This document shows, one piece after another, positions 17,491 through 42,980 of a DNA stretch of 42,980 nucleotides. Each line of letters begins with the position of its first letter. The first letter of the stretch is position 1. The notes beneath the pieces were generated by a model. It ran no database searches, was not told the origin of the DNA, and saw only the letters and a program-made list of their open reading frames with translations. The stretch lies in the IMG/VR virus record IMGVR_UViG_2778261642_000006. The stretch is one strand, 5' to 3'. Origin of the DNA: a virus (Duplodnaviria > Heunggongvirae > Uroviricota > Caudoviricetes). The position numbers and the translations under genes were made by a program.

Positions 17491-17693
17491 CGTTCTCAGT
17501 AAAAACCATTCCAGACATGCTCGTTGAAGCATACGGAAACCAGACAGAAGTAGCACGCAGACTGAAATGTAGTCGCGGCACGGTAAGAAAATACGTTGAT
17601 GATAAAGACGGGAAAATGCACGCCATCGTCAACGACGTTCTCATGGTTCATCGCGGATGGAGTGAAAGAGATGCGCTATTACGAAAGAATTGA
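17487..17693 (+). CDS. ninH: NinH
   Basis: 68 aa [37 protein letters not shown]… matches recalled lambda NinH. Confidence 0.8.
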
Positions 17694-18342
17694 TGGCAGC
17701 AAATACCGAAATGTTTGGGTAGTTGGCGATCTGCACGGATGCTACACGAACCTGATGAAAAAACTGGAGACGATAGGATTCGACACCAAAAAAGACCTGC
17801 TTATCTCGGTGGGCGATTTGGTTGATCGCGGTACAGAGAACGTCGAATGTCTGGAATTAATCACATTCCCCTGGTTCCGAGCTGTACGTGGAAACCATGA
17901 GCAAATGATGATTGATGGCTTATCAGAGCGTGGAAACGTCAATCACTGGCTGTTTAATGGCGGTGGCTGGTTCTTTAATCTCGATTACGACAAAGAAATT
18001 CTGGCTAAAGCTCTTGCCCATAAAGCAGATGAACTTCCGTTAATCATCGAACTGGTGAGCGAAGGTAAAAAATATGTCATCTGCCACGCCGATTATCCCT
18101 GTGACGAATACGAGTTTGGAAAGCCAGTTGATCATCAGCAGGTAATCTGGAACCGCGAACGAATCAGCAACTCACAAGACGGGATCGTGAAAGAAATCAA
18201 AGGAGCGGACACGTTCATCTTTGGTCATACGCCAGCAGTGAAACCACTCAAGTTTGCCAACCAGATGTATATCGATACCGGCGCAGTGTTCTGCGGAAAC
18301 CTCACATTGATTCAGGTACAGGGAGAAGGCGCATGGGCATAA
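17671..18342 (+). CDS. ninI: Ser/Thr protein phosphatase (NinI, lambda PPase-like)
   Basis: From [28 protein letters not shown]…; metallophosphatase motifs GDLHG, GDLVDRG, GNHE. Confidence 0.9.
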
Positions 18343-18851
18343 GAGAACTAAACCTCACCAAAGAGCAGCACGAGTGGCTGAATGGCTGGCTTGAACTGTG
18401 GGGAGCATGGGTTTATTCAGGTCGTCTGGAAAAGCGCATGAGCAGCGTAATAGCTAAGTTCATGGAGAGCGTAGAGCCGGGAAGAGTTATGACAAGGCCA
18501 ATGTGTAATGATGATGATGGAATGTTGATTTCTCAGGTCGTCGATTCCGTCATGTACATTGACAAGAAAGCCTTTGGCATCCTCCTCAGCTACTACGCTC
18601 ATGGTTCATCTAAGCGAGCAATTGCATCCTACTATCACGAGACTGCAAAGCCACGCAAGATGTGTGGGCGTGGTGGCGAGGGATGGAGAAAACCTTCACT
18701 GGCAACCTGTAGAAACGAAATTGACGATATCCTGAAAGCGTCATTATTTGTTTTGTACCAACCAATGAAAAATGCTTTCAAAATGCGTAAACGTGTTGAG
18801 AAAGTTAAGCATGTTGCTGTTAAAAGTCTTGACATGCAATTAGCCATTTAG
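18333..18851 (+). CDS. Q: Late-gene antiterminator Q (non-lambda Q family)
   Basis: 172 aa; directly upstream of pR'-like promoter and tR'; composition resembles the Q family of phage 21/82 type; mainly positional. Confidence 0.6.
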
Positions 18852-18858
18852 CCATAAT
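18829..18858 (+). promoter_or_regulatory. Late promoter pR'-like (TTGACA, 17-18 nt spacer, CATAAT)
   Basis: gtcTTGACAtgcaattagccatttagcCATAATat at the 3' end of Q, ~45 nt upstream of the tR' hairpin. Confidence 0.6.
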
Positions 18859-18898
18859 ATTCACATATGCTGCTGCTTTTGCATTCAGCAACCATCAC

Positions 18899-18924
18899 AA
18901 GCCCACCTCCTGTGGGCTTTTTTG
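18899..18924 (+). terminator. tR'-like intrinsic terminator
   Basis: AAGCCCAC-ctcct-GTGGGCTT followed by TTTTTTGC. Confidence 0.75.
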
Positions 18925-19045
18925 CATTCGCGTGCAATCAAAACAAGAGTCTTAGTGATATGGGCCTGAGATATGGTGGTGGAAACATCGCTCCGCTCTT
19001 GGCTGTCATATCTACGCGAACAGGCTCTATCCCTAAGGTAAAGCG

Positions 19046-19558
19046 ATGAAAGAAATAAAATTAACGCCAGAAATGGTGCTTTCTGTTGTTGATTACAATC
19101 CATCGTCAGGCGACTTTCACTGGAGATGGAGGCAGGGGAGAGAGAGGACCACTTTGACATGGAACTCTCGTTTTGCTTTCAAGAAATGCTCATCAATAAA
19201 TTCTGATGGGTATTTAATGATTATGATTAATGGTAAAGCATACCCTGCTCACAGACTGGCATGGTTGATTGTTTATGGCACCATGCCCGATGGTTTTATT
19301 GATCACATCAACAGGGTAAGAACAGATAACCGGATATCAAATCTTCGTCTTGTCACTCATTCCGAAAATATGCAAAACAGGAAAATTCAGAAGAATAATA
19401 AATCTGGATACCGTGGCGTGTCTTGGGATGCTAAGTACGGGAAATGGAGAGCAAGAATTAATGCGTCTGGAAAGTGTATTAACCTTGGATACCATGACAC
19501 TGCCGAACTTGCCGCTGCGGCTTTTGAGGCAGCCAGAATGAAATATCATACCGTTTAA
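19046..19558 (+). CDS. HNH endonuclease with AP2-like domain (paralogue of 16347..16913)
   Basis: 170 aa; shares HNH block (…IDHINRVRTDNRISNLR…) and AP2-like block (…SGYRGVSWDAKYGKWRARINASGKCINLGYH…) with the ninG-associated copy. Confidence 0.8.
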   Translation: MKEIKLTPEMVLSVVDYNPSSGDFHWRWRQGRERTTLTWNSRFAFKKCSSINSDGYLMIMINGKAYPAHRLAWLIVYGTMPDGFIDHINRVRTDNRISNLRLVTHSENMQNRKIQKNNKSGYRGVSWDAKYGKWRARINASGKCINLGYHDTAELAAAAFEAARMKYHTV

Positions 19559-19612
19559 AGATGTAAGCTGCCGTTAGTGACTCTTAAGTTGCAACGGTGG
19601 CTTTTTTTATTT

Positions 19613-19687
19613 GGGTCAGTCGTATAAAGGTCATTACGGAAGGCTGTTAACCTTCTTATCGTGGTTCGAGTCCACGCTGTCCCGCCA
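19613..19687 (+). tRNA. tRNA-like gene, anticodon GUU (Asn) by manual folding
   Basis: Acceptor GGGTCAG/CTGTCCC (1 mismatch), weak D-stem, anticodon arm GAAGG-CTGTTAA-CCTTC, T-arm CGTGG-TTCGAGT-CCACG, discriminator G, CCA. Confidence 0.5.
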
Positions 19688-19692
19688 AATAT

Positions 19693-19768
19693 GCTGGTTT
19701 AGCTCCAATGGTAGAGCAGTCGCCTTGTAAGCGAATGGGTAGCGGTTCAAGTCCGTTAACCAGCACCA
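19693..19768 (+). tRNA. tRNA, anticodon UGU (Thr) by manual folding
   Basis: 76 nt; acceptor GCTGGTT/AACCAGC, D-arm GCTC…GAGC, anticodon loop CTTGTAA, T-loop TTCAAGT, discriminator A, CCA. Confidence 0.6.
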
Positions 19769-22706: not shown

Positions 22707-23129
22707 ATGGCGACTGAACCAAAAGCTGGTCGCCCCTCTGATTATATGCCGGAGGTGGCTGACGATATCTGCTCGTTGCTTTCTTCTGGCGAGAGCTTGC
22801 TGAAAGTATGCAGGCGCCCAGGTATGCCGGATAAGTCCACTGTTTTCCGCTGGTTGGCAAAGCATGAGGATTTTCGCGACAAGTACGCGAAGGCAACTGA
22901 GGCACGAGCTGATTCTATTTTCGAAGAGATATTCGAAATTGCTGACAATGCGATTCCAGATGCTGCTGAGGTGGCAAAGGCAAGACTTCGCGTTGATACC
23001 CGCAAATGGGCGCTGGCCAGAATGAATCCCCGTAAGTATGGCGACAAGGTAACTAACGAGCTTGTCGGTAAGGACGGCGGCGCAATCCAGATTGAAACAT
23101 CACCGATGAGTACTCTATTCGGAAAATGA
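22707..23129 (+). CDS. Terminase small subunit
   Basis: 140 aa from MATEPKAGRPSDYMPEVADDICSLLSSGESLLKVCRRPGMPDKSTVFRWL… (HTH-like); directly upstream of large terminase with overlapping stop/start. Confidence 0.7.
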   Translation: MATEPKAGRPSDYMPEVADDICSLLSSGESLLKVCRRPGMPDKSTVFRWLAKHEDFRDKYAKATEARADSIFEEIFEIADNAIPDAAEVAKARLRVDTRKWALARMNPRKYGDKVTNELVGKDGGAIQIETSPMSTLFGK

Positions 23130-24541
23130 CCTCGATTAATCCTATCTTTGAACCGTTCATTGAGGCGCATCGCTACAAAGTCGCCAAAGGCGGTCGAGGT
23201 AGCGGTAAGTCATGGGCAATTGCGAGGCTGCTTGTTGAAGCGGCGCGTCGGCAGCCAGTGCGTATTCTCTGCGCTCGTGAACTGCAAAACAGTATCAGCG
23301 ATTCGGTAATCAGGTTACTTGAAGATACCATCGAGCGGGAAGGGTATTCGGCTGAGTTTGAAATTCAGCGTTCCATGATTCGTCATCTCGGAACGAATGC
23401 TGAATTCATGTTCTACGGCATCAAAAACAACCCGACGAAGATTAAATCGCTCGAAGGCATTGATATCTGCTGGGTGGAAGAAGCGGAAGCGGTAACGAAG
23501 GAATCATGGGATATCCTGATACCAACCATCCGCAAGCCATTTTCCGAAATATGGGTGAGCTTTAACCCGAAAAACATCCTCGACGATACCTATCAGCGAT
23601 TCGTCGTAAATCCTCCAGATGATATTTGCCTGCTGACGGTGAACTACACCGACAACCCGCACTTTCCTGAAGTTCTCCGTCTGGAGATGGAAGAGTGTAA
23701 ACGCAGAAATCCGACCCTGTATCGTCACATCTGGCTTGGTGAGCCAGTGAGCGCAAGTGATATGGCAATCATCAAACGTGAATGGCTTGAAGCCGCAACC
23801 GATGCGCACAAGAAACTAGGATGGAAAGCGAAAGGCGCTGTTGTTTCTGCACATGACCCGTCAGATACAGGGCCGGATGCTAAAGGTTATGCATCGCGTC
23901 ACGGTTCGGTTGTTAAGCGCATTGCCGAAGGTCTGCTGATGGACATCAACGAGGGTGCTGACTGGGCTACTTCGCTGGCGATTGAAGACGGCGCTGACCA
24001 TTACCTGTGGGATGGTGATGGTGTTGGTGCCGGGCTACGCAGACAGACAACGGAAGCGTTCTCCGGCAAGAAAATCACCGCCACGATGTTCAAGGGCAGC
24101 GAATCGCCATTCGATGAAGATGCACCGTATCAGGCCGGAGCATGGGCTGATGAAGTCGTACAGGGCGACAACGTTCGCACTATTGGCGATGTATTCCGCA
24201 ATAAGCGAGCGTAATTCTATTACGCGCTGGCTGACAGGCTGTATCTGACATATCGGGCGGTTGTTCACGGTGAGTATGCAGACCCAGACGACATGCTGAG
24301 TTTCGACAAAGAAGCGATAGGCGAGAAGATGCTGGAGAAGCTGTTTGCAGAACTGACGCAGATTCAGCGCAAATTCAATAACAACGGGAAGCTGGAGCTT
24401 ATGACTAAGGTCGAAATGAAGCAGAAGCTCGGTATTCCATCTCCTAACCTGGCTGATGCACTGATGATGTGTATGCATTGCCCGGAGTCGGCTGCGCAAC
24501 CCGACTATTCCAGTTACTCAATTCCTTGTGGTGTAGGTTGA
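23126..24541 (+). pseudogene. Terminase large subunit interrupted by in-frame TAA at 24212..24214
   Basis: Walker A VAKGGRGSGKS; 362-aa ORF ends at TAA, and the same frame continues without frameshift (FYYALADRLYLTYRAVVHGEYADPDDMLSFDKEAIG…) to 24541, 2 nt before the portal start. Confidence 0.7.
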
Positions 24542-31097: not shown

Positions 31098-31945
31098 TGG
31101 CGGATTCATCACTGAATAATCCTGTAGCGGTTCAGGCTACGCGCCTTGATGCTTCAATTTTGCCACGCAATATATTCAGCCAGTCTTACCTGCTGTATGT
31201 CATTAATCAGGGGGCTGATGTAGGCGCAATTGCCGGGAAGGCAAATCAGGCTGGTCAGGGCGCTTATGACGCGCAGGTAAGGAACGATGAGCAGGATGTG
31301 ATTCTCGCTGACCATGAGCAGCGAATTTCTGCTGCGGAAGCAACGCTTGTTAATCATGAGGAGCGAATCAGCCAGGCAGAATCAACTCTTCAGGACCATG
31401 AAACACGAATCGCTCAGAATGAAAGCGATATTGCGTCGCTTGATACCAGAGTTCAGTCGCTGGAATCGCAGGTTTCAGACCATGAAACGCGCATCGATGC
31501 TCTGGAGTATGCAACTACTCGCAAGAAGTCAGAGGTTGTTTACTCTGGCGTATCTGTAACCATCCCGACAGCGCCGACCAACCTTGTTAGCCTGCTGAAA
31601 ACGCTCACGCCGTCATCTGGCACGTTGACACCATTCTTCGACACCGTTAACAACAAGATGGTTGTGTTCAACGAGAACAAAACCTTGTTCTTCAAGCTGT
31701 CGATCGTCGGGACGTGGCCCAGCGGAACCGCCAACAGGTCAATGCAGCTAACATTCTCCGGTTCTGTTCCTGACACACTGGTAAGCAGTCGCAACTCGGC
31801 GACAACAACCGATAACATCTTGTTAGCTACGTTCTTCAGCGTGGATAAAGACGGCTTTCTTGCCACAAATGGCAGCACGTTAACCATTCAGTCGAATGGT
31901 GCGGCGTTTACTGCCACAACCATCAAAATCATTGCGGAACAATGA
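31097..31945 (+). CDS. Tail needle protein (P22 gp26-like) with divergent C-terminal domain
   Basis: N-terminus [61 protein letters not shown] matches recalled gp26; heptad coiled coil; different C-terminal knob. Confidence 0.85.
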
Positions 31946-32331
31946 CAAACATAGACGCTATTACTGGCTCACAATTAATGAGATTGTGGGGTGTTAGCTC
32001 GTGGATTGATCCGGGGGCTAACTATTATTTGTGGGATGGGTGTTGCGTATTTGCCATGGTGAAACAATCAGGCTTCTATGACATCCATGTTGCAATGGAT
32101 AAACGAAGATGGAGTGAGTGCAGAAAAGCTGGTGAATCAATTCTTAAAATGTTTGGCCACCATAAATTGCGGGCGGTAATAATCAGCGACAGGCCAAGAG
32201 TATGCAACTATGCCAGGAGAATGGGGTTTGGTGAGCGAACGTTACAAACCCTAAGGACTGTAGATGGGCGCGAAAGCGCCTTTTTTATTATGTGGCGTGA
32301 TCCGGGGGAATATCATGGGCGGAGCAATTAA
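31942..32331 (+). CDS. Hypothetical virion-associated protein (P22 gp14 position)
   Basis: 129-aa ORF; assignment by position only. Confidence 0.4.
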
Positions 32332-32977
32332 AGGTGTAACAAATGCTGCCAGCGGGATACTTGGTGGAATAGGTGCCAATTCTGCGAGCAAAGAGTACAA
32401 AAAAGCTAATGACAGGCAGCAAAACCTTCAGGAGCAAATGTATCAGCAGCAGATAGCGTTTGGAAAACCTTATCGTGAAGTTGGCGAATCAGCTTTACCA
32501 CGTTTGCAAAAGCTTGCTGGCATTCCTATTGATCGAAATAAATTATTAGGAGACTACTTTAATTCGCAAGAATTCAAACTCCTAAATGATCAGGCTCGTT
32601 ATAGTGGGCTTGCATCTGCTGAAGCTACAGGCGGTCTTGGGTCAACGGCTACTGGAAATATGCTGGCTTCTATTGCCCCTCAATTAGGCCAGCAATATCT
32701 TTCCATGAAGACAGCAGAGCAGCAGGATATGTATAACCAGTTAATGGGGTTAACGAATGTTGGGTTAACTGCTGCTGGTATGGGTAGTGCGGCATCGGCA
32801 AATAACTCAAATGTTTTAACGTCACTTATAGGTGAATCAGGGCAAATCAGGGGGGCGCAAAAAGCCTTACCATGGCAGACGGCAGCCAGTGCTAACTCAT
32901 CATTAGGTAATGGCGCATCTCAGGATGTTAACTCTTTCACTAACATGTTTGGTGGATTTTTAGGAGGATTATTCTGA
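32315..32977 (+). CDS. Ejection (internal virion) protein, gp7 position
   Basis: 220 aa from [13 protein letters not shown]…; Gly/Ala/Ser/Gln-rich; GGGGG RBS; positional analogy to P22 gp7. Confidence 0.55.
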   Translation: MGGAIKGVTNAASGILGGIGANSASKEYKKANDRQQNLQEQMYQQQIAFGKPYREVGESALPRLQKLAGIPIDRNKLLGDYFNSQEFKLLNDQARYSGLASAEATGGLGSTATGNMLASIAPQLGQQYLSMKTAEQQDMYNQLMGLTNVGLTAAGMGSAASANNSNVLTSLIGESGQIRGAQKALPWQTAASANSSLGNGASQDVNSFTNMFGGFLGGLF

Positions 32978-34314
32978 TGGCTTATAGTATTGGCAGCCCA
33001 TTAAATCTGATGTCATTAGTTCCTGACTTCAGACTGGAAGGATTGAAAGAAGCTCAAACCTTTGCCACGACACAGCAAGGTATAGCGCAGGGAATAGATA
33101 ACCAGCGGGCTATTCGACAGGATGCCAGACAGCAGGAATTCTATAAAGCTATGAATGAAACTCCTCCTGAACAAATAGCTTCTCTGCGTAGAAAATTCCC
33201 TGAGTTTACTCAGGCTATACAACAGGAGTTAGGTATTCAGAGTGCTGAGCATTCAGCATTTGTTAATTCAGCTTTAAATAAAATATCAATTGCTGCATCT
33301 ACAGGAAATCCAAATGAAATTGCAAATGCTCTGAATAGCAACAGCGCAGCATTATTAAGTCTTGGTGTGAGTAAGGATGATGCATGGCAGCTTTATCAAC
33401 AGGATCCGGCCAGGTTTAATAGTCTGTTAAATGCTAGCCGCCTTGCCACTCTGCCTATGGATAAACAGTTTGATGTGCAGCATCAACGCGATCAGCTTAA
33501 TGAGACAATCCGCAGCAATAAAGCTGGGGAAGGTTTACAGGCGCAAAGCATTGCTGTTAGCCGTGAAAACTCCCTGCGCACTGCTGGAGGTGCTGTTCCT
33601 GCATCTGTTAAAGAATATCAATATTTCAACAGCCTGTCTCCAGAGCAACAAAAGACATATCTTCGTGTTCGAGGCCGTCCTGATGCTGGCGGGGAGAATG
33701 TTGTGCAACTGGCAGATGGCAGAACGGTAACGGTTGGTAAGAAGCTTCACGGCGCTGGTGCTAACGCGTTCTACGAAGGAATAGACAACGAGGGCAATAT
33801 GATTCGCGTCCCCGCCAGTTCTATTGCTGCTCCGGCTACATCGGCAGCTAATGCGCAGAATTACGAAATGAAGAAAGATCTTGATGCAATTTCTGGCGCA
33901 TCAATTGACGATCTTGGCTTCATGACAGGTATTACAGGTTCTTCAGGTTCTTTTGCTCTTGGTGCAGATATTCGTAGCCGGGCATCTGGTGTTGAGGAGA
34001 GGAGGCTATACAACGCTGCACAGCGAATCATGGGCAAAATGCAAAATCAGGGGATTGCAGCAGCCCGAGATATGGGGGCATCTGGCATCAACACCGAAGC
34101 AGAGGCTAATAGGTATTTTCAGGGTATGCCAAAGCCTGATTTCTCAAGTCCTGAAGCGCTGCAACAATCAATGCGCGACATTCAGCAATATACCGACAAT
34201 TACAACCAGCAATATAACGTTAATGTTGGTAAATCTCAGCGGCAGCAATCTCAACCTACACAGGTATCACAGCCAGCAGCCAGCAGTAACTTTTCTTCAC
34301 TATGGGGTGATTAA
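32977..34314 (+). CDS. Ejection (internal virion) protein, gp20 position
   Basis: 445 aa, Gln/Ala/Ser-rich; size and order as P22 gp20. Confidence 0.6.
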
Positions 34315-36482
34315 TGGCTAAAGCATGGAAAGATGTTATCGCCTCTCCACAGTATCAGGCGTTAACTGAAGAACAGAAAGCACAGGCTCAAGCGCAATAT
34401 TTTGATGAGGTTGTTGCCCCTAAGGCTGGTGACAAATGGGCTGAAGCAAGAGATCAGTTTTATGCAGCATACCCTCCGCCTCAGCAGCAGAAAGAAGAAC
34501 CATCATTGATGCAACAAGCTGGTGATTGGCTCACAGGCGGTCAAAGTGCAGGGCAAATTGCAGAGCAGGCTGGTCGTGGTCTGGTAAACATACCATTTGA
34601 CGTATTGCAGGGTGGCGCAAGTCTGATTAATGCAATCAGTCAGGGGCTTGGTGGGCCCAAGGTTTTGGATGATGTCTATCGTCCAGTCGATCGACCGACA
34701 GACCCTTACGCGCAAGCCGGTGAAACAATTGGTGGGTATCTCCTGCCAATTGGCACAGCGGCAAAAGCTGCTGGAGCGCCAGCAAAGCTCGCTGGAGATA
34801 TCAGTTCCGCAGGAAACATGATTGCAGGTTCTCTTGCTGATGCTGCAAATCAGGAGGGTGATTTTGCACAAAATGCTGCCATTAACGGTGGTATCAATAT
34901 TGGTGCTCAAGGCGTTCTTTCAGGTGTCGGGCGCGTTATTGCGCCAAGGGTTTCACAGGCTCTTGGTGGTGCAGCACTGAATTCTGCTAATGATGTTTCG
35001 AAAATGGCAAAGTCAGGTACAGGAAGAGAGATTATTGCCAGACAGTCAGCTAACGTGTCAGACGAAATAGCAAAAGCAGCAGATACTGCTGGAATAGATA
35101 TCAACGCATTAACTCCTGGCATGAGATCAGGTAGTCGTGGTCTTGCTCAGGCGGAGGGGATTCTGGCGTCAAAGCCCGGAATTACACAGGATGCACACAC
35201 CAAAGCATTCAGTGAAATAGAGTCGAAATTTAACTCAGCATTGGATGAGTTTGGGGCTGAAGCAGGAACTGCATCAGAAAAAAGTGCAGCCATAAAACAG
35301 AGGGTTTTGGCAAGCATTGATAAAATGAAAAATTCAGAAAAGGCCGCATGGGATAGCGTCCGCTCCACGATGCCTGACGCAAAGGCCAGAATGTCAAACC
35401 TGAACGCTACAATTCAGGGTGATATTTTGGCTGGCATGCCGCTAACTCCTGAGATGAAACAATTCGCATCTGCTTATGCTAAAACTGGTAAAAAAGGAAT
35501 CACGTTTGATGCCATGAAGGCATGGCGAAGTAAACTTGCTGACGCAGAGCAGAAGTATATAAGGTCTGGTGAGGCAAATACGGCAAGGCGCATGGCTGAG
35601 CTTCGTGATGCAGCAACGGAAGATATGCGCATAATGGCTCAAAATGGCGGTTTTCTTGATGACTGGCAAAAAGCTAATGACCTGTCAAAGGCAAGATTTA
35701 CAGCACAAGAACAGGCTGAAGCAGCGTTTGGCAGAGACCTTGCAACTGATCAGTTGGTAAATAATGGCTCTAAGGCGTTACAGGGCTCAGCAAAAAGTGG
35801 AACAGGTCAGTTCCATAAAATAATAAGCGCCCTACCTGAGTCGGAACGCGCGCCAGCAATTGCATCAATATTACAAGATGCAATGTCGCAAGGGGTACGC
35901 GGAGGTAAGTCTGAAGAGGCTGGAATTAAGCATATCGCGACTATTCTTACCCCACAAAACGTGAAGGCAATTAGTCGATATTCTCCAGAACTTGGCAGGA
36001 TTACAAGTTCATACGGAGAACTTGCAAGAGCAGCAACAAAGCCACTTCGATATGTTGAACAGACAGGGCGATCTATGCCAGCCATTAGCACTCTTGAGAA
36101 TGGCCTTCATCCAGTTTTAGAGAGCGCATTGTCTGGCGCTTTTAGAACTACTGGCACTATCGCAGGGTTCTCTGGAGGAGGCGTTATTGGAGCAATAGCG
36201 GGTGGCGCTGCAGGTGGAGCAATTGATGCAATGGCAAAAGGAGCGATAGCGAAATTATCCGCAACTAGAAGCGGTCGTTACGCTATTGAAAAGGCTGTTC
36301 AAGAGGCAACAAAGGCAGTTAAGGTTGGGGCAAGTGATGGTGCATTAGCGGCGGCGGAACGCAGATTTATGGCAAATAAGGCCGCCGTAAAAGCAATACG
36401 CGAGGCACTAGGAAACGAAGAGTTCCAGCGTTTAGCAAGGGCTGGAATTGTGGCATCGCTAAGCGGAATGGCACAGGAGTAA
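34314..36482 (+). CDS. Ejection (internal virion) protein, gp16 position
   Basis: 722 aa, Ala/Gly-rich with Gly-rich C-terminal segment; order as P22 gp16. Confidence 0.6.
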
Positions 36483-36812
36483 TTAGTCATCCATGGATGG
36501 ATTGAGCTTATCTCGTGTTGATGTGGCAATTTTCCCAACATTTTTCAACCAAGATTTTAAGAAGGATATGTCGTCCTTAATATCATGAATATCCTCATTC
36601 TTTATACGATCAACCTTATCCTCTAGGCTCTCTATAGAACGCTCAATGCTAGACAGAGAGATTTTTAAGTCTCCTTGATCACGTTCCAGTGAGGATTTGA
36701 GAGCACAATATTCGTTTTCTAGAATTCCTATTTTTTTTGTTAGAGAGTGCATTCGATACTCATACACCAAACCAGAAACGACTAATGCAGCCAACAGAAA
36801 CCATTCAAGCAC
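36483..36812 (-). CDS. Hypothetical membrane-anchored coiled-coil protein (sieA-position accessory gene)
   Basis: 109 aa from GTG with AAGGAGG RBS 5 nt upstream; N-terminal hydrophobic helix (LEWFLLAALVVSGLVYEY) then heptad-rich region. Confidence 0.5.
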   Translation of the reverse strand: MLEWFLLAALVVSGLVYEYRMHSLTKKIGILENEYCALKSSLERDQGDLKISLSSIERSIESLEDKVDRIKNEDIHDIKDDISFLKSWLKNVGKIATSTRDKLNPSMDD

Positions 36813-36842
36813 ACCAACCTCCTTAGTTTTGCGCAGGATACC

Positions 36843-37208
36843 ATGAAAAAAGTTAACATTGGAAACGTACCAAAGATGCTCGTTCCGCTCTTTGAGAGCG
36901 GTACAATTGTGTTTTGTAGAGACTTTCCAGAATGGCAACGCCTGCATCAAAAACTTGGCGTTGACGTGCATGACTCGGACGCCAACGGAGCGTCTCATAC
37001 AATGAGTAGCGAGAATGGTGTTTTGCATGTGATAGGCGTGTTCAATGGCAAACTATCTACTATTGCCCATGAGTGCGCTCACATGGCATTCGATATCTGC
37101 TCAAGGGTAGGTGTTGATGTTGAACCAGGAAGAGCCAACGAGACTTACTGCTACTTAATGAGCAGGCTTGTTGAGTTCTGCGAGCGACATATCAAAAAGC
37201 CGGAGTGA
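36843..37208 (+). CDS. Hypothetical protein with HEXXH zinc-metallopeptidase-like motif
   Basis: 121 aa; …STIAHECAHMAFDI…; divergent from the membrane gene with only ~30 bp between starts. Confidence 0.5.
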   Translation: MKKVNIGNVPKMLVPLFESGTIVFCRDFPEWQRLHQKLGVDVHDSDANGASHTMSSENGVLHVIGVFNGKLSTIAHECAHMAFDICSRVGVDVEPGRANETYCYLMSRLVEFCERHIKKPE

Positions 37209-37221
37209 CCCGGCTTGATTA

Positions 37222-37401
37222 TTACTTTTTGCTGTCTGGAGTTCGCTTATCCAATACCCAGCCATGACCTGGCTTTGTTGTTGGTGGAAGCCTTTCGTTG
37301 TCCTTGACGGTTGCAAAATTGTCTTTCTTACCGCCGCGTGGGCCAACTTCTTGGTATATTCCGCCGTTTTTTCCTGTGTTTTCACCTGGTTTTTTCGCCA
37401 T
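37222..37401 (-). CDS. Small YjzC-like protein
   Basis: 59 aa MAKKPGENTGKNGGIYQEVGPRGG…; GAGGT RBS; Gly/Pro/Lys-rich pattern recalled for YjzC-family proteins. Confidence 0.45.
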   Translation of the reverse strand: MAKKPGENTGKNGGIYQEVGPRGGKKDNFATVKDNERLPPTTKPGHGWVLDKRTPDSKK

Positions 37402-37500
37402 GATATACCTCAACATACACCCGTTATTGGGCGATTAAATATTGATCTCATTTTATAAGTAGTCAATATGGCCCAGGTAAATGCAAAAATTAACCCACCT

Positions 37501-37752
37501 TCAGGTGGGTTTTTTGTACAAATCCTTCAGCGTATCAAACACCATCTTCTTAACAAGCTCTGACTGCTCATCAGCGATGCGTTCCGCATCGTCTCGATAG
37601 CCTGAAATTTTGGATGGCTTTGATACAGCATCAGTCACTATCTGAACTAATTCTGAATTAAGAGAGCGACCATTGGATTTGGCTCGCTGTTTTAGTTTTT
37701 CCTTTAATTCGTAAGGTAGCCGCAGATTAAATTGCGGGTCATCTCTTCCCAT
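37501..37752 (-). CDS. mnt: Mnt repressor (ribbon-helix-helix, P22 immI)
   Basis: 83 aa MGRDDPQFNLRLPYELKEKLKQRAKSNGRSLNSELVQIVTDAVSKPSKISGYRDDAERIADEQSELVKKMVFDTLKDLYKKPT, closely matching recalled P22 Mnt. Confidence 0.9.
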   Translation of the reverse strand: MGRDDPQFNLRLPYELKEKLKQRAKSNGRSLNSELVQIVTDAVSKPSKISGYRDDAERIADEQSELVKKMVFDTLKDLYKKPT

Positions 37753-37815
37753 TCTTGATGCCTCGCTTTTGTGAGTGGATCGGCATCTTATTATCTGCTG
37801 GTTGCATCCTCAATA

Positions 37816-37830
37816 AGACCACAGTGGTCT
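37816..37830. promoter_or_regulatory. Putative Mnt operator (AGACCAC-A-GTGGTCT palindrome)
   Basis: Perfect 15-bp inverted repeat between mnt and the tailspike start, where P22 has Omnt/Pant. Confidence 0.55.
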
Positions 37831-37898
37831 CTTTGTTTGATTAATAATGCATCACTGTGGCAATGCTGCGGCGATTCCTTGTATCTGGAGCAAATTAA

Positions 37899-40550
37899 AT
37901 GACAGACATTACAGCCAATGTTGTAGTGAGTATGCCTTCGCAACTCTTCACTATGGCGCGTTCTTTTAAAGCCGTAGCCAATGGCAAAATTTATATCGGT
38001 AAAATTGACACTGACCCGGTAAATCCTGAAAACCGGATTCAGGTTTATGTGGAGAACGAAGACGGCTCTCACGTTCCTGTATCGCAGCCAATCATCATTA
38101 ACGCTGCCGGATATCCTGTATATAACGGACAGATTGCCAAATTCGTTACTGTACAGGGCCATTCTATGGCTGTTTATGATGCGTATGGTTCGCAGCAGTT
38201 CTATTTTCCAAACATTCTGAAATATGATCCTGATCAGTTTAAACAAGAACTAGAGAATAAATTTAACAATGGTTCAACTCCATCAATTATAAATTATAAG
38301 TACGGTCTTCCAGAAGAAGTAGACGGAGCAACACAAAGGACGCTACAGGATAAACTTGATGACCATGTAAATGTTCGCGATTTTGGTGCAAAAGGGGATG
38401 GCATTACTGACGATACAGACGCAATAACAAGTGCCATCATTTACTGCGCATCTAACGGAAAACGCCTGAAGTGGGATTCTGGTGTGTATTTGATTAGCCG
38501 CATAAAATGCGGCGGGGATAATTATAACTATGACTGGGTAGCTGATGGCAAGGTTGTCTTAAAGTCAACCGCAAAAGAGCCTCTTGGCCCAAACTGGATT
38601 GATGATTATTTCATAAGACTCGAAGGTGGAGATGCCACGCCAATTGACTATAATTCAACAATAAATCCTGGTGACACATCAATATCAATTAACTCAGCAT
38701 ACTCTGTTGATGCAGGCGATATAATTATGATTCATGGCAATCGCTTAATTCAGACAGATAATAGAGGACAGGCTTGTGAAGGTGAAATGCATGTTGTTAC
38801 TGCTTTTGATAATGCAACAAAAAAAGCGGAGATATCAGGTGCATTTTATTTTTTCTACTCTGCGAGCAATGATTACTCAACGACCGTAACAGCATCTGTA
38901 TCCGGAGGTGAATTCTCATTTGGTAATGATGCAACATTAACAAAACAATACAATCAGGTAAAAGTAACAGGTGTCACCGGAGCTAACGCCGGAACATCAA
39001 GATACATAACTCATTGGGATTACGACACTAAAACAGCAAAATTTGAATATGCTCAGGGACCATTCCCGTTTAAACCATCTGTTGGAGACGTGTTTAAAAT
39101 CACAAGAAAGGCAAATATATATAAAAGAAAACCATGCTACGGCAGAATTGTTGGTGATTTCAATTTTGAAAGACCTGTCACGCAGAACGCATCTCCTGGT
39201 GATTTGGGGTTCCGTGGTCTTGTGATAGATGGCGCTGTTGATATGCATATAGAAGGAATAAAACTAATCGGCTTTTCAGAAACTGGAATTTTTCTTGAGT
39301 CATGCTACAGAACGAAAATAATAGAACCATATATTGAATACTCAAACCGTGCATATGATTTAACAAACGGCACTGGTTATGGTGTTGAAATATACAATAG
39401 CAGCTATTGCACAGTCGTGGATATGATAGCATTTGCTTGCAGGAGGGGGCTTGATGTAAGCGGGACTCAAATGGTATCACTGTATAATAACATTATAAAT
39501 CCAACGATGATGGGTGGTGGAACTGCATATGATGGAGTTAAATTTTTCCCTGATGGCGATACAAGAAATTCATGTTGCGGTGGACACGGCCCATCATACG
39601 AAACAACTTTTACAGGCGGCAATTCAGTCAATTTGTATTATGCTGGTGTAATACGCGGATTAAATGAAGTGTATGATGGAATGAACGCCAGGGGATTTAG
39701 CGGCCCGGCTCCTTTTTTTGTAAGATATAGTGGTGGTGGGTTCACGATTCAGAACTGTAATTATATTGATGGTTTTACTGAGATGTCTTTGCCATACAAC
39801 TTGAGGTACAAACCTGTGAATGCAACTCAACGTAATCACAGACCTCTTGTTTTTATTGAAACAACTCTGGCACAGACAGACAGAAACTCTTACTATAAAG
39901 AACTTCCTGTTGTTATTAAAAATAATACCGCAAGGACTGTTCTCAAGGGCTTTTTACGTTTTGAGGTTAATGATGGCCTCACCCCTCTAATCCAAAATAT
40001 TTATTTTGGTGGTAATTTATGTATGGCGAACCCAGAAACATCAGACTCTGTATCAGGGCAAACAGAGGCAGTAATGGTTTATTCATCTGTTCCTGGTGCA
40101 ATAATTGTTCGAAATTTCCATGATCTTGGCGGTAACAGAATTGTTCCTGTTGGAGCAGGATACAGATACTGCGGTATGTTCAACACGCCAGATGGAATAG
40201 CAGGAACAATAGTTCAACCAGACGGAAAATATCTAATAACACTTGAAGCCAACAAATCTACAAGTATCCTTGTTGGTGGATACGTACCATGTGTTCGCCT
40301 TGATATGCACGACATACTTGATATTCATGGGGTAATTGCAGTTGGTGTTCTTATTCATCGTGGTGAGGCAATTGATTTTTCTCCTTTAAAAGAAATTAAT
40401 AAGCAAAATGTTGTATTGAAAACCGGAGTTCTTTCAGATAATGATGGTGATGAAAATAACTTAAATATTTCGTTTGACTTTGCAACCATATATTTAAGCA
40501 ACAAGATGCCAAATAAGATTCAACTATCTATTGAAGTATCAGGAGTGTAA
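37899..40550 (+). CDS. Tailspike protein: P22-type head-binding domain plus long divergent beta-helix receptor-binding domain
   Basis: N-terminus [59 protein letters not shown]… matches recalled P22 gp9 N-terminus; 883 aa total. Confidence 0.9.
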
Positions 40551-40586
40551 TTGTATCAATTTGCTAAATTAAAAAAGGATAAAAAT

Positions 40587-40874
40587 ATGGATACAACACC
40601 AATAACACATGCAGTATGCGCGGTTATTGCGCAGATACTGGTTGGCCTTTCTACCGGAAACTGGGCTTACGGTGCGATAGCCGGTTGTACGTTCTTCATT
40701 GCGCGTGAACACACCCAGGCAGAATATCGCTGGATAGAAAAGTTTGGGAAAGGGAAACGCATCAACATGCCGTGGTGGGGAGGTTTTGATCCACGCGTGT
40801 GGGATGTGGGAAGTCTGTTGGATTTTTCTTTCCCAATTATCGGATGCTTATTGGTATGGATTCTTGCATCGTAG
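40587..40874 (+). CDS. Hypothetical small membrane protein downstream of tailspike
   Basis: 95 aa from MDTTPITHAVCAVIAQILVGLSTGNWAYGAIAGCTFFIA…; AAGGA RBS; two hydrophobic segments. Confidence 0.45.
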   Translation: MDTTPITHAVCAVIAQILVGLSTGNWAYGAIAGCTFFIAREHTQAEYRWIEKFGKGKRINMPWWGGFDPRVWDVGSLLDFSFPIIGCLLVWILAS

Positions 40875-40970
40875 CGAACACATAATTACCGATGAAACAA
40901 AACTGAGACACACAAAGCTTTGCACTGGATTGCGAGGCGTTGCGCTTCTCTGGAGTGCGACAGGTTTGAT

Positions 40971-41013
40971 GACAAAAAATTAGCGCAAGAAGACAAAAAC
41001 CACCTTGCGCTAA
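40971..41013 (-). terminator. lambda sib/tI-like hairpin in the attP P-arm
   Basis: TTAGCGCAAG…CTTGCGCTAA stem preceded on the forward strand by an A-run (U-tract on minus strand); surrounding sequence matches recalled lambda attP arm. Confidence 0.55.
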
Positions 41014-41159
41014 TGCTCTGTTACAGGTCACTAATACCATCTAAGTAGTTGATTCATAGTGACTGCATATGTTGTGTTTTACAGTATTATCTAGTCTATT
41101 TTTTATACGAAATGAAATGTAATATATTGATATTTATAACATTTTACGTTTCTCGTTCA

Positions 41160-41174
41160 GCTTTTTTATACTAA
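41160..41174. repeat. attR core (GCTTTTTTATACTAA)
   Basis: Exact repeat of the attL core, followed by attB-like …cttgagcgaaacggg. Confidence 0.85.
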
Positions 41175-41264
41175 CTTGAGCGAAACGGGAAGGTAAAAAG
41201 ACAAAAAGTTGTTTTTAATACCTTTAAGTGATACCAGATGGCATTGCGCCATCTGGCAGAGTGA

Positions 41265-41741
41265 TTAACTAAACATCGCAGTAATCGAGGCACTCGCCAG
41301 AGAGTGAAAATGAACGTTAAACCCGACCATCGCGCCGCTGGCACCTTCATCGACATCAATACGTTCTACATCCAGCGCGTGAACGGTAAAAATGTAGCGA
41401 TGGGTTTCGCCTTTCGGCGGCGCTGCGCCATCGTACCCGGTTTTACCAAAGTCGGTACGCGTCTGCAAAACGCCGTCTGGCATAGCTACCAGACCAGAGC
41501 CAAACCCTTGCGGTAATACGCGGGTATCAGCGGGTAAATTAACAACTACCCAGTGCCACCAGCCGGAGCCGGTTGGCGCATCCGGGTCATAGCAGGTGAC
41601 AACAAAACTTTTCGTTCCCACAGGAACATCATCCCACGCCAGATGCGGTGAAATATTATCGCCATCGTAACCCATGCCGTTAAAGACATGACGATGCGGC
41701 AGCTTATCGCCATCGCGCAGATCGTTACTGATGAGTTTCAT
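41265..41741 (-). CDS. ybhB: Host PEBP/UPF0098-family protein YbhB-like
   Basis: 158 aa; PEBP-like motifs (…CYDPDAPTGSGWWHWVVVNLP…); recalled as the gene on the bio side of attB-lambda. Confidence 0.85.
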   Translation of the reverse strand: MKLISNDLRDGDKLPHRHVFNGMGYDGDNISPHLAWDDVPVGTKSFVVTCYDPDAPTGSGWWHWVVVNLPADTRVLPQGFGSGLVAMPDGVLQTRTDFGKTGYDGAAPPKGETHRYIFTVHALDVERIDVDEGASGAMVGFNVHFHSLASASITAMFS

Positions 41742-41849
41742 TAGAATGCCTCCGGGAAACCTCGGCCTTCAGACCGGGGAGGAAAGGAGGCGGTTTTCCG
41801 ACTAACTGTACTTTGCATAATCACATTTTCCTCTTTAGTATGTGAACAC

Positions 41850-42980
41850 ATGAAACGCGCATATAAATACCGGTTTTACCCGACAACTGAGCAGGCTGAG
41901 CTTTTAGCTCAGACGTTTGGCTGTGTGCGCTTCGTCTACAATTCCATCCTTCGTTGGCGTACCGATGCGTACTACGAGCGAAAAGAAAAGATCGGTTATC
42001 TACAGGCCAACGCTCGCCTTACGGCGCTCAAAAAAGAGCCTGAATACATATGGCTGAATGATGTTTCCTGCGTTCCCCTCCAGCAGTCGTTGCGCCACCA
42101 ACAAGCCGCCTTTGCTAACTTCTTTGCCGGACGAGCTGCATATCCGGCTTTCAAAAGCAAACGGCACAAACAGGTGGCTGAGTTCACTGCCAGCGCGTTT
42201 AAACACCGTGACGGCGAGTTGTATATAGCAAAGAGCAAGTCGCCGCTGGATGTTCGCTGGAGTCGAGAATTACCATCTGCGCCGTCAACCGTTACCATTT
42301 CCAGAGATAGCGCTGGCAGGTACTTTGTTTCCTGCCTGTGTGAGTTTGAACCTGTATCAATGCCTGTTACCGCTAAAACGGTCGGCATTGATGTGGGCTT
42401 AAAAGATTTATTCGTCACCGATACCGGATTCAAAACCGACAATCCCCGCCACACCGCTAAATATGCGAAGCGATTAACGCTGCTACAGCGACGTTTAAGC
42501 AGGAAGCAAAAAGGCTCAAGAAACCGTATTAAAGCCCGCTTAAAGGTCGCCCGACTCCACGCGAAAATCGCCGATTGCCGGATGGACAATCTGCACAAGT
42601 TGTCCCGCAAACTGATTAACGAAAACCAAGTTGTTTGCGTCGAATCCCTCAAGGTGAAAAACATGATCCGCAACCCGAAGCTGTCTAAAGCAATAGCTGA
42701 CGCAGGCTGGAGCGAACTTGTTCGCCAGCTCCAGTACAAAGGCAAATGGGCCGGGCGGTCAGTGGTCGCCATTGACCAGTATTTACCGTCCTCAAAATGC
42801 TGTAGTTGCTGCGGTTTCACCATGCAAAAAATGCCTCTTAATGTTCGTAAATGGCACTGCCCTGAATGCGGCGCAGACCATGATCGCGACATTAACGCGG
42901 CACGTAATATTAAAGCTGCCGGGCTGGCAGTGTTAGCCCACGGAGAGCCTGTAAACCCTGAATCGCAGCACGCGGCTTAG
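41850..42980 (+). CDS. tnpB: IS200/IS605-family TnpB (OrfB) RuvC-like nuclease
   Basis: 376 aa; N-terminus MKRAYKYRFYPTTEQ; RuvC-like motifs (GIDVGLKDLFV, …DHDRDINAARNI) and zinc finger (CCSCCG…CPECG); stop codon is the last 3 nt of the window. Confidence 0.85.
   Translation: MKRAYKYRFYPTTEQAELLAQTFGCVRFVYNSILRWRTDAYYERKEKIGYLQANARLTALKKEPEYIWLNDVSCVPLQQSLRHQQAAFANFFAGRAAYPAFKSKRHKQVAEFTASAFKHRDGELYIAKSKSPLDVRWSRELPSAPSTVTISRDSAGRYFVSCLCEFEPVSMPVTAKTVGIDVGLKDLFVTDTGFKTDNPRHTAKYAKRLTLLQRRLSRKQKGSRNRIKARLKVARLHAKIADCRMDNLHKLSRKLINENQVVCVESLKVKNMIRNPKLSKAIADAGWSELVRQLQYKGKWAGRSVVAIDQYLPSSKCCSCCGFTMQKMPLNVRKWHCPECGADHDRDINAARNIKAAGLAVLAHGEPVNPESQHAA

What the first reader, a model, noticed from the sequence alone, without database searches (positions are those of the whole stretch)
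37899..40550. Chimeric tailspike with large divergent receptor-binding domain
Only the first ~115 residues match the P22 head-binding domain; the remaining ~770 residues, including a Cys-containing segment (…NSCCGGHG…), are unrelated to the P22 receptor-binding domain as I recall it. This implies a different surface polysaccharide specificity.
Basis: partly seen in the sequence, partly recalled or inferred. Interest (0 to 1): 0.4.

Follow-up and report, generated by a model that had tools for sequence, protein, structure and literature searches.

The report
Prophage tailspike that targets a capsule
A P22-type prophage of E. coli carries a mosaic tailspike whose large outer part is a swapped-in, lyase-like module found only in strains with the K53/K93 capsule gene cluster, so it most likely recognises and cuts that capsule rather than the O-antigen; this is useful to know but is a new example of a known kind of module exchange.

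Summary
Window 37899-40550 (+) is an intact 883-aa tailspike. Residues 1-113 are the P22 head-binding domain, and the rest matches no characterised tailspike in sequence. The outer module (aa 157-883) also occurs, 99% identical, on an epsilon15-type anchor in a second prophage type. It is a beta-helix enzyme homologous to the proven O-polysaccharide lyase LKA1 gp49 (hhalign probability 97%). The three conserved active-site residues of gp49 align with family-invariant Arg289, Arg515 and His563. The receptor is probably not the O-antigen. The module occurs in 10 of 5,426 complete E. coli genomes. Five typed hosts are O4, O4, O6, O45-variant and O51, yet all 10 fall among the 40 genomes that carry one group-2 capsule locus (glf, UDP-glucose dehydrogenase, acetyltransferase). 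That locus matches the published K53/K93 architecture. A sister module only 31% identical occurs in 4 genomes, all within the same 40 (combined P = 1e-31). Best reading: a K53/K93 capsule-specific depolymerase, probably a lyase, analogous to the K1-specific tailspike of prophage CUS-3. No enzymology exists, and the K-type name is inferred. It is a new member of a known kind, of moderate interest.

The parts
37899..40550 (+). Tailspike gene, 883 aa, intact
   Evidence: ORF list and translation. RefSeq annotates the same gene in strain YP3. PHROG phrog_14558 matches full length.
37899..38237 (+). P22-type head-binding (virion anchor) domain, aa 1-113
   Evidence: Pfam PF09008, E 4e-66. PDB hits to P22, Sf6 and HK620-type anchors. 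DNA identity of 83-94% to HK620, Sf6 and CUS-3 ends at about nt 341.
38238..38366 (+). Linker, aa 114-156. It lies outside both the anchor and the block shared with the epsilon15-type version, and is predicted disordered apart from one short helix.
   Evidence: The block shared with the uetakevirus copy starts at 38367. Model pLDDT is below 50 for module residues 1-38. The same linker is present in the sister tailspike P0012.
38367..40833 (+). Horizontally mobile block: receptor-binding module (aa 157-883) plus nearly all of the small downstream ORF. It is 99.6% identical in an epsilon15-type prophage of strain KC-Dl-1.
   Evidence: blastn of the window against L002. Six genomes carry it on a 924-aa protein. 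That protein's N-terminus is 95-96% identical to E. coli uetakevirus tailspike anchors and 70% to epsilon15.
38628..39122 (+). Insertion domain interrupting the beta-helix (about aa 244-408; boundaries approximate). It contains the invariant TDNRGQ motif.
   Evidence: hhalign places the LKA1 gp49 insertion domain (residues 284-370) here. Strand pattern of the model. Relatives give weak Pfam 'K1-lyase Rider domain' hits in the same alignment region.
38763..38765 (+). Arg289 codon: invariant Arg of the insertion domain, aligned with LKA1 gp49 Arg329
   Evidence: Invariant in alignment A1. hhalign mapping verified by script. The role of Arg329 is described in PMC5701251.
39441..39443 (+). Arg515 codon (CRRGLD motif): invariant, aligned with LKA1 gp49 Arg459
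39567..39590 (+). 'NSCCGGHG' segment (aa 557-564). His563 (39585-39587) is invariant and aligns with LKA1 gp49 His499. Cys559/Cys560 occur only in close relatives.
39858..40547 (+). C-terminal all-beta region (about aa 654-883), beyond the part alignable to LKA1 gp49. Probably trimerisation and/or extra carbohydrate binding (inferred).
   Evidence: Model secondary structure with pLDDT mostly 80-95. Many distant relatives share only the first ~470 residues of the module and differ here.
40587..40874 (+). Small membrane-protein ORF (95 aa, phrog_1443) that travels with the module. It is a generic gene found downstream of receptor-binding genes and is a likely 3' recombination anchor.
   Evidence: PHROG hit. 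It is annotated in both prophage types. tblastn finds 78-90% identical copies in 72 phage records, both P22-like and lambdoid, downstream of tail fibre or spike genes.
37501..37752 (-). Arc-family repressor gene upstream of the tailspike (P22-type immI region), given as context
   Evidence: ORF. RefSeq annotation of the identical YP3 region.
41265..41741 (-). Host gene ybhB, which marks the right end of the prophage. ybhC and the integrase are at the left end of the window.

Best explanation
The gene encodes the tailspike of a P22-like (Lederbergvirus-type) prophage integrated between ybhC and ybhB. It has two parts. The first is a conserved P22 head-binding anchor (aa 1-113), which fixes the spike to the virion. 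The second is a horizontally exchanged receptor-binding module (aa 157-883), which also circulates on epsilon15-type anchors. The module is a right-handed beta-helix interrupted by an insertion domain and followed by an all-beta C-terminal region. It is homologous to the O-polysaccharide lyase tailspike LKA1 gp49. Most likely mechanism: the trimeric spike binds the group-2 K53/K93 capsule of E. coli, an acidic Galf/GlcA polymer that differs between K53 and K93 in O-acetylation. It then depolymerises the capsule by beta-elimination at the uronic acid, using the groove formed by Arg289 (from the insertion domain), Arg515 and His563. This lets the virion tunnel through the capsule to the outer membrane. 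Shown here: the domain composition, the module exchange, the homology to a proven lyase with conserved site residues, and the exclusive co-occurrence with one kps locus type. Inferred: the receptor identity, the K-type name, enzymatic activity and the lyase chemistry.
For: 1. Chimerism and mobility. The anchor is PF09008. The module is 99.3-100% identical in 10 genomes. Three carry it on an intact P22-type anchor, one as an N-terminally truncated remnant next to thrW, and six on an epsilon15-type anchor.
2. Host association. Five carriers are O4, O4, O6, O45-S88 variant and O51. O4 wzy is present in only 2 of the 10 carriers. All 10 carriers lie within the 40 of 5,426 genomes that hold the kps region 2 of strain YP3. 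Hypergeometric P is 1.4e-22, or 1.7e-11 when only five clearly independent events are counted.
3. Replicate. The sister module P0012, 31% identical, occurs in 4 genomes, and all are within the same 40 (P 2.5e-9; combined 14/14 P 1e-31).
4. Capsule identity. Region 2 encodes proteins of 583, 580 and 664 aa (double GT2), glf, a hexapeptide acetyltransferase, a UDP-glucose-dehydrogenase-family enzyme and a 446-aa GT2. This is the gene set, order and sizes listed for the serologically typed K53/K93 loci in the supplement of PMC13171606. The acetyltransferase is 222 aa (as in K53_9) in the 28-genome type and 227 aa (as in K93_9) in the 12-genome type. In-silico K53 is recorded in O4:H5 ST12 and O6:H31 ST127 (PMC13171598 supplement).
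6. Active site. hhalign against LKA1 gp49 gives probability 97.1%, E 4.9e-11 over 365 columns. gp49 Arg329, Arg459 and His499 align with invariant Arg289, Arg515 and His563. gp49 is an experimentally proven lyase that yields a 4,5-unsaturated uronate product (PMC5701251). K1 lyase uses Tyr, His and Arg in syn beta-elimination (PMC8822698).
Confidence: 0.6

Rival explanations
1. The receptor is the same (K53/K93 capsule), but the module is a glycoside hydrolase, for example an endo-galactofuranosidase or glucuronidase, and not a lyase.
Confidence: 0.2
2. The co-occurrence with the K53/K93 locus is hitch-hiking. The true receptor is some other structure, or the prophages are simply inherited within capsule-defined lineages.
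For: Association is not proof of receptor use. Several of the 40 genomes may be clonally related, and sampling of complete genomes is biased.
Against: Carriers have four different O-antigen clusters, come from dog, chicken, human, whale, mink and river water, and hold the module in three genomic contexts on two virion backbones. A second module, only 31% identical, shows the same exclusive association. Both the K53-type and K93-type loci are represented. No carrier lies outside the 40 genomes (P 1e-31).
Confidence: 0.07
3. It is an ordinary O-antigen-specific tailspike, as assumed for most Lederbergvirus and Uetakevirus prophages.
For: P22-type and epsilon15-type tailspikes are classically O-antigen endoglycosidases, and prophage tailspikes have been used to predict O-serogroups (PMC10408124). 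The first host examined is O4.
Against: Only 2 of 10 carriers have O4 wzy. The other typed hosts are O6, O45-variant and O51, which have unrelated gene clusters.
Confidence: 0.03
4. The module binds the capsule but is catalytically inert, acting as an adhesin-type spike.
Against: A set of polar residues in the groove is strictly conserved down to 24% identity, including the counterparts of the LKA1 gp49 site. A podovirus with a short tail needs to penetrate a capsule (established knowledge of K1, K5 and Klebsiella podophages).
Confidence: 0.05

Closest known systems
Pseudomonas phage LKA1 gp49 / phi297 gp61 tailspikes (O-specific polysaccharide lyases; PDB 4RU4, 4RU5)
   Different: Only about 17-21% identical. 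The insertion domain here is about twice as long. The C-terminal region is not alignable. The anchor differs (P22 head-binding against the T7-like adaptor). The substrate there is P. aeruginosa O5 B-band LPS, here apparently an E. coli group-2 capsule.
CUS-3 prophage tailspike (P22-like prophage of E. coli K1 strain RS218, endosialidase)
   Same: Same biological design: a P22-like prophage of extraintestinal E. coli whose tailspike joins the P22 head-binding domain to a capsule-specific depolymerase. The anchor DNA is 91.5% identical, and similarity ends at the same boundary, about nt 341, where CUS-3 has an annotated 'boundary sequence'.
   Different: The CUS-3 module is a K1 endosialidase (a hydrolase with a different fold and a C-terminal chaperone; from established knowledge). 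This one is a beta-helix lyase-like module tied to K53/K93. The window ORFs scanned against Pfam include no capsule-modifying gene like neuO.
Coliphage K5A / K1-5 K5 lyase KflA (PDB 2X3H)
   Different: There is no detectable sequence homology beyond the N-terminal cap motif (hhalign probability 6%). KflA has no insertion domain of this type (per PMC8822698 it ends in a triple-stranded beta-helix). It belongs to lytic T7/SP6-like phages.
Klebsiella phage NTUH-K2044-K1-1 K1 lyase (PDB 7W1C) and K64-1 S2-4 (9K4A)
   Different: About 10-14% identity. The substrate is the Klebsiella K1 capsule. Residue-level correspondence was not established here.
P22 gp9, Sf6 gp14 and HK620 gp9 tailspikes
   Same: The same N-terminal head-binding domain and gene position in a P22-like genome. 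The general class is the same: a trimeric right-handed beta-helix.

Membership tests
P22-like (Lederbergvirus-type) tailspike | N-terminal head-binding domain (PF09008) | tested here: met
   aa 1-113, E 4e-66, full-length match to the profile. PDB hits to P22, Sf6 and HK620-type anchors.
P22-like (Lederbergvirus-type) tailspike | Gene position: after the ejection-protein genes and the Arc/immI region, at the end of a P22-like prophage | tested here: met
   gp10, tail needle, ejection proteins and Arc precede it. ybhB follows. The integrase is at the other end next to ybhC.
P22-like (Lederbergvirus-type) tailspike | P22 gp9-type endorhamnosidase receptor-binding domain | tested here: not met
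   P22 tailspike aligns only to aa 1-124. The module is a different family.
LKA1 gp49-type polysaccharide-lyase tailspike module | Detectable sequence homology across the beta-helix and insertion domain | tested here: met
   hhalign probability 97.1%, E 4.9e-11, 365 columns. Foldseek E 2.5e-14.
LKA1 gp49-type polysaccharide-lyase tailspike module | Conserved groove residues Arg329 (insertion domain), Arg459 and His499 | tested here: met
   They align with Arg289, Arg515 and His563, which are invariant in 15 family members.
LKA1 gp49-type polysaccharide-lyase tailspike module | Three-domain layout: beta-helix, inserted beta-barrel, C-terminal beta-sandwich | tested here: inconclusive
LKA1 gp49-type polysaccharide-lyase tailspike module | Beta-elimination activity yielding a 4,5-unsaturated uronate | not testable with these tools
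   This needs enzymology. It was shown only for LKA1 gp49 itself (PMC5701251).
Capsule (K-antigen)-specific phage depolymerase | Occurrence restricted to hosts of one capsule type, independent of O-type | tested here: met
   10 of 10 carriers, and 4 of 4 for the sister module, lie within the 40 of 5,426 genomes with one kps region 2. Four O-types are represented.
Capsule (K-antigen)-specific phage depolymerase | Capsule required for adsorption, and capsule degraded by the protein | not testable with these tools
   No experimental data were found, and no K53/K93 coliphage or depolymerase appears in the searchable literature.
E. coli K53/K93 group-2 capsule locus (host side) | Region-2 gene set, order and sizes as in the serologically typed reference loci | tested here: met
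   583 aa, 580 aa, 664 aa (GT2), glf 368/369 aa, acetyltransferase 222 or 227 aa, kfiD-like and GT2, compared with the PMC13171606 supplement.
E. coli K53/K93 group-2 capsule locus (host side) | Sequence identity to reference loci, or a serological K53/K93 reaction | not tested
There is no sign they are in the searched collection.

The most novel reading that the evidence does not exclude
The module and its 31%-identical sister may represent an uncharacterised enterobacterial branch of LKA1 gp49-type lyases dedicated to Galf/GlcA group-2 capsules. The two deeply diverged lineages could coexist on the same capsule because they differ in tolerance of its O-acetylation (K53 against K93) or in the bond they cleave. 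If so, these would be the first K53/K93 depolymerases and, after K5 lyase, a second lyase class acting on E. coli group-2 capsules. It would also show that Lederbergvirus and Uetakevirus prophage tailspikes cannot be used blindly as O-serogroup predictors.
Probability: 0.35. Interest if true: 0.5.

Novelty: new member of a known kind. Interest (0 to 1): 0.4.

Why it matters
K53 and K93 are group-2 capsules of extraintestinal pathogenic E. coli lineages; in-silico K53 is recorded in O4:H5 ST12 and O6:H31 ST127 (PMC13171598 supplement). No phage or depolymerase for them was found in the searchable literature. A specific depolymerase would be a ready reagent for capsule typing, for stripping capsule in anti-virulence or phage-therapy designs, and for retargeting tailocins. 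The case also shows that tailspikes of P22-like and epsilon15-like prophages, often taken as O-antigen predictors, can be capsule-specific. Comparing a prophage module's distribution with kps and O-antigen loci separates the two. Mechanistically, it extends the LKA1 gp49 lyase family from Pseudomonas LPS to enterobacterial capsules and gives three testable active-site residues.

Tried and rejected
1. 'O4-specific tailspike'. The first host (YP3) is O4, but O4 wzy is present in 36 genomes and only 2 of the 10 carriers are among them. Further hosts are O6, O45-variant and O51. Rejected.
2. The small downstream ORF as a specific partner (chaperone or conversion gene) of the module. It is a generic gene found downstream of receptor-binding genes in 72 P22-like and lambdoid phage records, and the sister tailspike has a different downstream gene. 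Rejected; it is more likely a recombination anchor.
3. Residue-level mapping onto K5 lyase KflA. hhalign aligned only the N-terminal cap motif (probability 6%). The profile-against-PDB search likewise found only anchor and cap matches.
4. Naming the capsule by finding the serological reference genomes among the hits. No record length matched SSI 81999 or SSI 85376. The 'NZ_OZ' record I checked belongs to another project, so this test is uninformative.
5. Reading the K53/K93 repeat-unit structure. Only the abstract of PMC2188001 is held. EK3D, PMC10072801 and the two 2026 Nat Microbiol main texts do not give it. The backbone is therefore quoted from memory of Bax et al. 1988.
6. A capsule-modifying moron in the prophage, as with neuO in CUS-3. 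The window ORFs scanned are HNH-AP2 endonucleases, NinG, a phosphoesterase, a Q antiterminator, a CI-like repressor and unknowns. None was found.
7. Literature search for K53/K93 coliphages or depolymerases. Only Acinetobacter and Klebsiella 'K53/K93' papers turned up.
Full report
**Observation**

Window 37899-40550 (+) is a single intact ORF of 883 aa with an ATG start and TAA stop. The string NSCCGGHG is at residues 557-564. Pfam places the P22 head-binding domain on residues 1-113 (E 4e-66), with only a weak pectate-lyase-like cap motif at 157-185. Against all PDB sequences, P22 tailspike aligns to residues 1-124 only, Sf6 gp14 to 1-185 and CBA120 TSP3 to 114-197. Nothing matches beyond residue ~200. 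In 50,697 deposited phage genomes only the first 341 nt match at DNA level (HK620, Sf6, CUS-3 and others). The remaining 768 aa have no tblastn match covering more than 32% of the query; the longest is 25% identical, to a Bacillus phage tailspike. GC content falls to 0.33-0.42 over the receptor-binding part, against 0.45-0.52 in the ejection-protein genes upstream. The gene is not an orphan. RefSeq annotates it without function (WP_021556114.1), and a PHROG family (phrog_14558, 'tail spike protein') matches it end to end.

**Context**

The window is a P22-like prophage. The left end holds ybhC and a tyrosine integrase. Then come P22-type early, lysis, terminase, portal, coat, needle and ejection genes, an Arc-family repressor, the tailspike, a 95-aa membrane-protein ORF, and the host gene ybhB. 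It is a mosaic sibling of the prophage of E. coli YP3 at the same site. Long blocks are 97.8-99.9% identical, interrupted by unrelated or diverged segments. The tailspike region (36342-42980) is 99.985% identical.

**The receptor-binding part is a mobile module**

The DNA for residues ~117-883 occurs at >=99.3% identity in 10 of 5,426 complete E. coli genomes. Three genomes carry it on an intact P22 anchor. One carries an N-terminally truncated remnant next to an integrase at thrW. In the other six, identity starts at window position 38367 (residue 157), and the N-terminus is a different ~197-aa anchor. That anchor is 95-96% identical to the tailspike anchors of E. coli uetakeviruses and 70% to epsilon15. 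The identical block (99.6%) runs from 38367 to 40833, through the tailspike stop and nearly all of the small downstream ORF. That ORF (phrog_1443) is found at 78-90% identity in 72 phage records, both P22-like and lambdoid, downstream of their fibre or spike genes. It is best seen as a conserved 3' flank that helps exchange, not as a partner specific to this module.

**What the module is**

A search of 5.8 billion proteins found about 17 full-length relatives (99-24% identity). They come from E. coli, Citrobacter, Plesiomonas and metagenomes, and sit on P22-type, epsilon15-type, T7-fibre-type and CBA120-type anchors. An exhaustive HMMER scan of 1.84 billion cluster representatives found only 57 at E <= 1e-30 and 122 at E <= 1e-10. 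Most share the first ~470 residues and differ at the C-terminus.

The alignment shows a set of invariant polar residues: TDNRGQ, NRAY, GTGYG, CRRGLD, GGG, G-H-G and RGLNE. The AlphaFold model built on this alignment is confident (mean pLDDT 84.7, pTM 0.85).
- Foldseek against the PDB ranks Pseudomonas phage phi297 gp61 and LKA1 gp49 first. Acinetobacter AP22 gp54 and the Klebsiella K1 capsule lyases follow (E 6e-15 to 1e-12). Sf6 and HK620 tailspikes are far weaker (1e-6 to 1e-5).

Sequence profiles cannot be aligned to KflA beyond the cap motif. They do align significantly to LKA1 gp49 (probability 97.1%, E 4.9e-11, 365 columns). LKA1 gp49 is an experimentally proven O-polysaccharide lyase whose product carries a 4,5-unsaturated uronic acid. 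It is built of a beta-helix, an inserted beta-barrel and a C-terminal beta-sandwich. Its conserved site is formed by Arg329 from the insertion domain, hydrogen-bonded to His499, with Arg459 across the groove (PMC5701251). In the alignment these three residues fall exactly on the family-invariant Arg289, His563 and Arg515 of the window protein; I verified the numbering by script. The two cysteines occur only in close relatives. The Klebsiella K1 lyase likewise uses Tyr, His and Arg for syn beta-elimination at glucuronic acid (PMC8822698).

**What it recognises**

I tested the expected answer, the host O-antigen, first.
- Strain YP3 has an O4 cluster. O4 wzy is present in 36 genomes, and only 2 of the 10 carriers are among them.
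- Further carriers are O6 (HB37), an O45-S88 variant (2452) and O51 (266917_2). These clusters are unrelated, so the O-antigen cannot be the common receptor.
- YP3 has a group-2 kps capsule locus. Its serotype-specific region 2 encodes two unknown proteins, a double GT2, UDP-galactopyranose mutase, a hexapeptide acetyltransferase, a UDP-glucose-dehydrogenase-family enzyme and a second GT2.
- Searching this 10.2-kb region against all complete genomes gave 40 genomes with >=80% coverage. All 10 carriers are among them (hypergeometric P 1.4e-22).
- Counting only five events that are clearly independent by O-type, virion backbone or integration site still gives P 1.7e-11.

As a replicate I took the sister tailspike P0012, which has a P22 anchor and a module only 31% identical. 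Its module DNA occurs in four complete genomes, and all four are again among the same 40 (P 2.5e-9; combined 14 of 14, P 1e-31). Both lineages retain the Arg/Arg/His residues.

**Naming the capsule**

The supplement of PMC13171606 lists, for the serologically typed K53 and K93 reference strains, these shared genes:
- K53_K93_7: a GT2;
- K53_K93_8: 63.5% identical to K5 kfiD;
- K53_K93_10: glf, 369 aa;
- K53_K93_11: a GT2 of 664 aa with two GT domains;
- K53_K93_12: 580 aa;
- K53_K93_13: 583 aa, kfiB-like.

It also lists a type-specific acetyltransferase, K53_9 (222 aa) or K93_9 (227 aa), which are 64% identical to each other. My region 2 has exactly this order and these sizes. The 40 genomes split into two types. 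A 28-genome type has a 222-aa acetyltransferase. A 12-genome type aligns at 91% coverage and 99.1% identity and has a 227-aa ORF there. I therefore call the first K53-type (9 carriers of the window module) and the second K93-type (1 carrier).

Independently, the supplement of PMC13171598 records in-silico K53 in O4:H5 ST12 and O6:H31 ST127. It finds glf in only three K loci and places KL53, KL164 and KL93 together in its K-locus tree. This naming is inferred from architecture. It is not based on alignment to the reference sequences, which I could not access and which do not appear to be in the searched collection.

The repeat unit is, from my memory of Bax et al. 1988 (cited), ->3)-beta-D-Galf-(1->4)-beta-D-GlcA-(1->, with different O-acetylation in K53 and K93. 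I could not read a source for it. The gene content (glf, UDP-Glc dehydrogenase, acetyltransferase, two GT2s) agrees. So does the search index showing 'galactofuranose' and 'glucuronic acid' in the K93 paper. A 4-substituted glucuronic acid is the substrate geometry that beta-elimination requires, as in K5 and Klebsiella K1 lyases.

**Most likely mechanism**

The spike is anchored to the P22-type tail by residues 1-113. Its outer module binds the K53/K93 capsule along the beta-helix groove, which is deepened by the insertion domain. It cleaves the polymer at glucuronic acid by beta-elimination, with His563 and a nearby Tyr (for example Tyr494, which aligns with gp49 Tyr438) as candidate base and acid. 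Arg289 and Arg515 would neutralise and position the carboxylate. The virion thereby tunnels to the outer membrane.
- The capsule assignment is well supported (about 0.8).
- The lyase chemistry is plausible but unproven (about 0.6). Invariant Asp and Glu residues, and high-ranking hydrolase neighbours, keep a hydrolase alternative alive.

**Comparison with what is known, and novelty**

The closest biological analogue is CUS-3, the P22-like prophage of K1 E. coli, whose tailspike joins the same anchor at the same boundary to a K1 endosialidase. The closest molecular relatives are LKA1 gp49 and phi297 gp61. The closest functional analogue in E. coli is the K5 lyase. Pas et al. (PMC10408124) treat Lederbergvirus and Uetakevirus prophage tailspikes as O-serogroup predictors and use K1 spikes only as an outgroup. 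This subtype is not among theirs. No K53/K93 coliphage or depolymerase appears in the searchable literature. The finding is thus a new member of a known kind: a modular tailspike with a capsule depolymerase. It has a new predicted specificity and a testable active site, and it is not a new kind of system.

**Caveats**

There are no experimental data. The K-type name is inferred. The catalytic roles of the LKA1 gp49 residues are themselves proposed from conservation. Model coordinates could not be inspected, so domain boundaries are approximate. The window's own prophage carries a nonsense codon in the large terminase, so this copy may be defective even though its tailspike is intact.

Noticed in passing
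window 23126-24541 (stop created at 24212): The large-terminase gene has a single C->T change relative to the YP3 prophage. It creates a premature stop (362 aa instead of 471 aa). This prophage copy may be unable to package DNA, or it may be a sequencing error.
   Followed up: partly
window 40587-40874: This 95-aa predicted membrane protein (phrog_1443, no Pfam hit) sits immediately after the tailspike. Copies 78-90% identical occur downstream of tail fibre or tailspike genes in 72 P22-like and lambdoid phage records. Its function is unknown. It lies inside the 99.6%-identical exchanged block.
   Followed up: partly
window 16347-16913 and 19046-19558: Two paralogous HNH endonuclease plus AP2-domain ORFs (homing-endonuclease-like) lie in the nin/late-regulator region, inside a segment (16349-19766) that does not match the YP3 prophage.
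   Followed up: no
window 41850-42980: An IS200/IS605-type TnpB/InsQ RNA-guided endonuclease gene sits just outside the prophage, between ybhB and bioA, and runs to the end of the window. It is also present in strain YP3.
   Followed up: no
window 31945-36342: The ejection-protein region differs from the otherwise near-identical YP3 prophage. Only one ~1.2-kb stretch aligns, at 82%. This shows mosaic exchange immediately upstream of the conserved tailspike block.
   Followed up: no
L014 3001-5604 (protein P0012), with carriers CP100530, CP032237, CP019392 and CP095448: A sister P22-anchored tailspike, with a module only 31% identical, is also found exclusively in K53/K93-locus genomes (4 of 4). 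Its downstream gene is a DUF6395 protein on the opposite strand, not the small membrane ORF. Why two such diverged modules serve the same capsule is unexplained.
   Followed up: partly
L016 3666-7625 (strain 2452): At the thrW tRNA-Thr site there is a prophage remnant consisting only of an integrase, an N-terminally truncated copy of this tailspike and the small ORF. It abuts a second prophage.
   Followed up: partly
L008 24259-24926 (YP3); feature counts for HB37: The capsule acetyltransferase gene of the K53-type locus is annotated as two fragments in YP3. The gene count suggests the same in HB37. The capsule of some lysogens may therefore be non-acetylated.
   Followed up: no
L006 13290-14544 (HB37): The O6 wzx flippase of carrier HB37 is annotated as frameshifted, so this host may not display O-antigen at all.
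   Followed up: no
rows H30 and H31 (HB37, 2452): Both genomes show a second place matching the receptor-binding module DNA. I did not examine the second copies.
   Followed up: no
hits H148-H167 and 50 unlisted records: Seventy further genomes share parts of kps region 2. Twenty of them share the last 2.6 kb (UDP-glucose-dehydrogenase-like gene plus GT2) at ~94% identity. This points to related K loci that I did not characterise.
   Followed up: no
L003 1561-4116 (YP3, next to dacD): A gtrA/gtrB-like pair (yfdG, yfdH) plus an adjacent unknown gene looks like a remnant O-antigen glucosylation module. It could modify the O4 antigen of this host.
   Followed up: no
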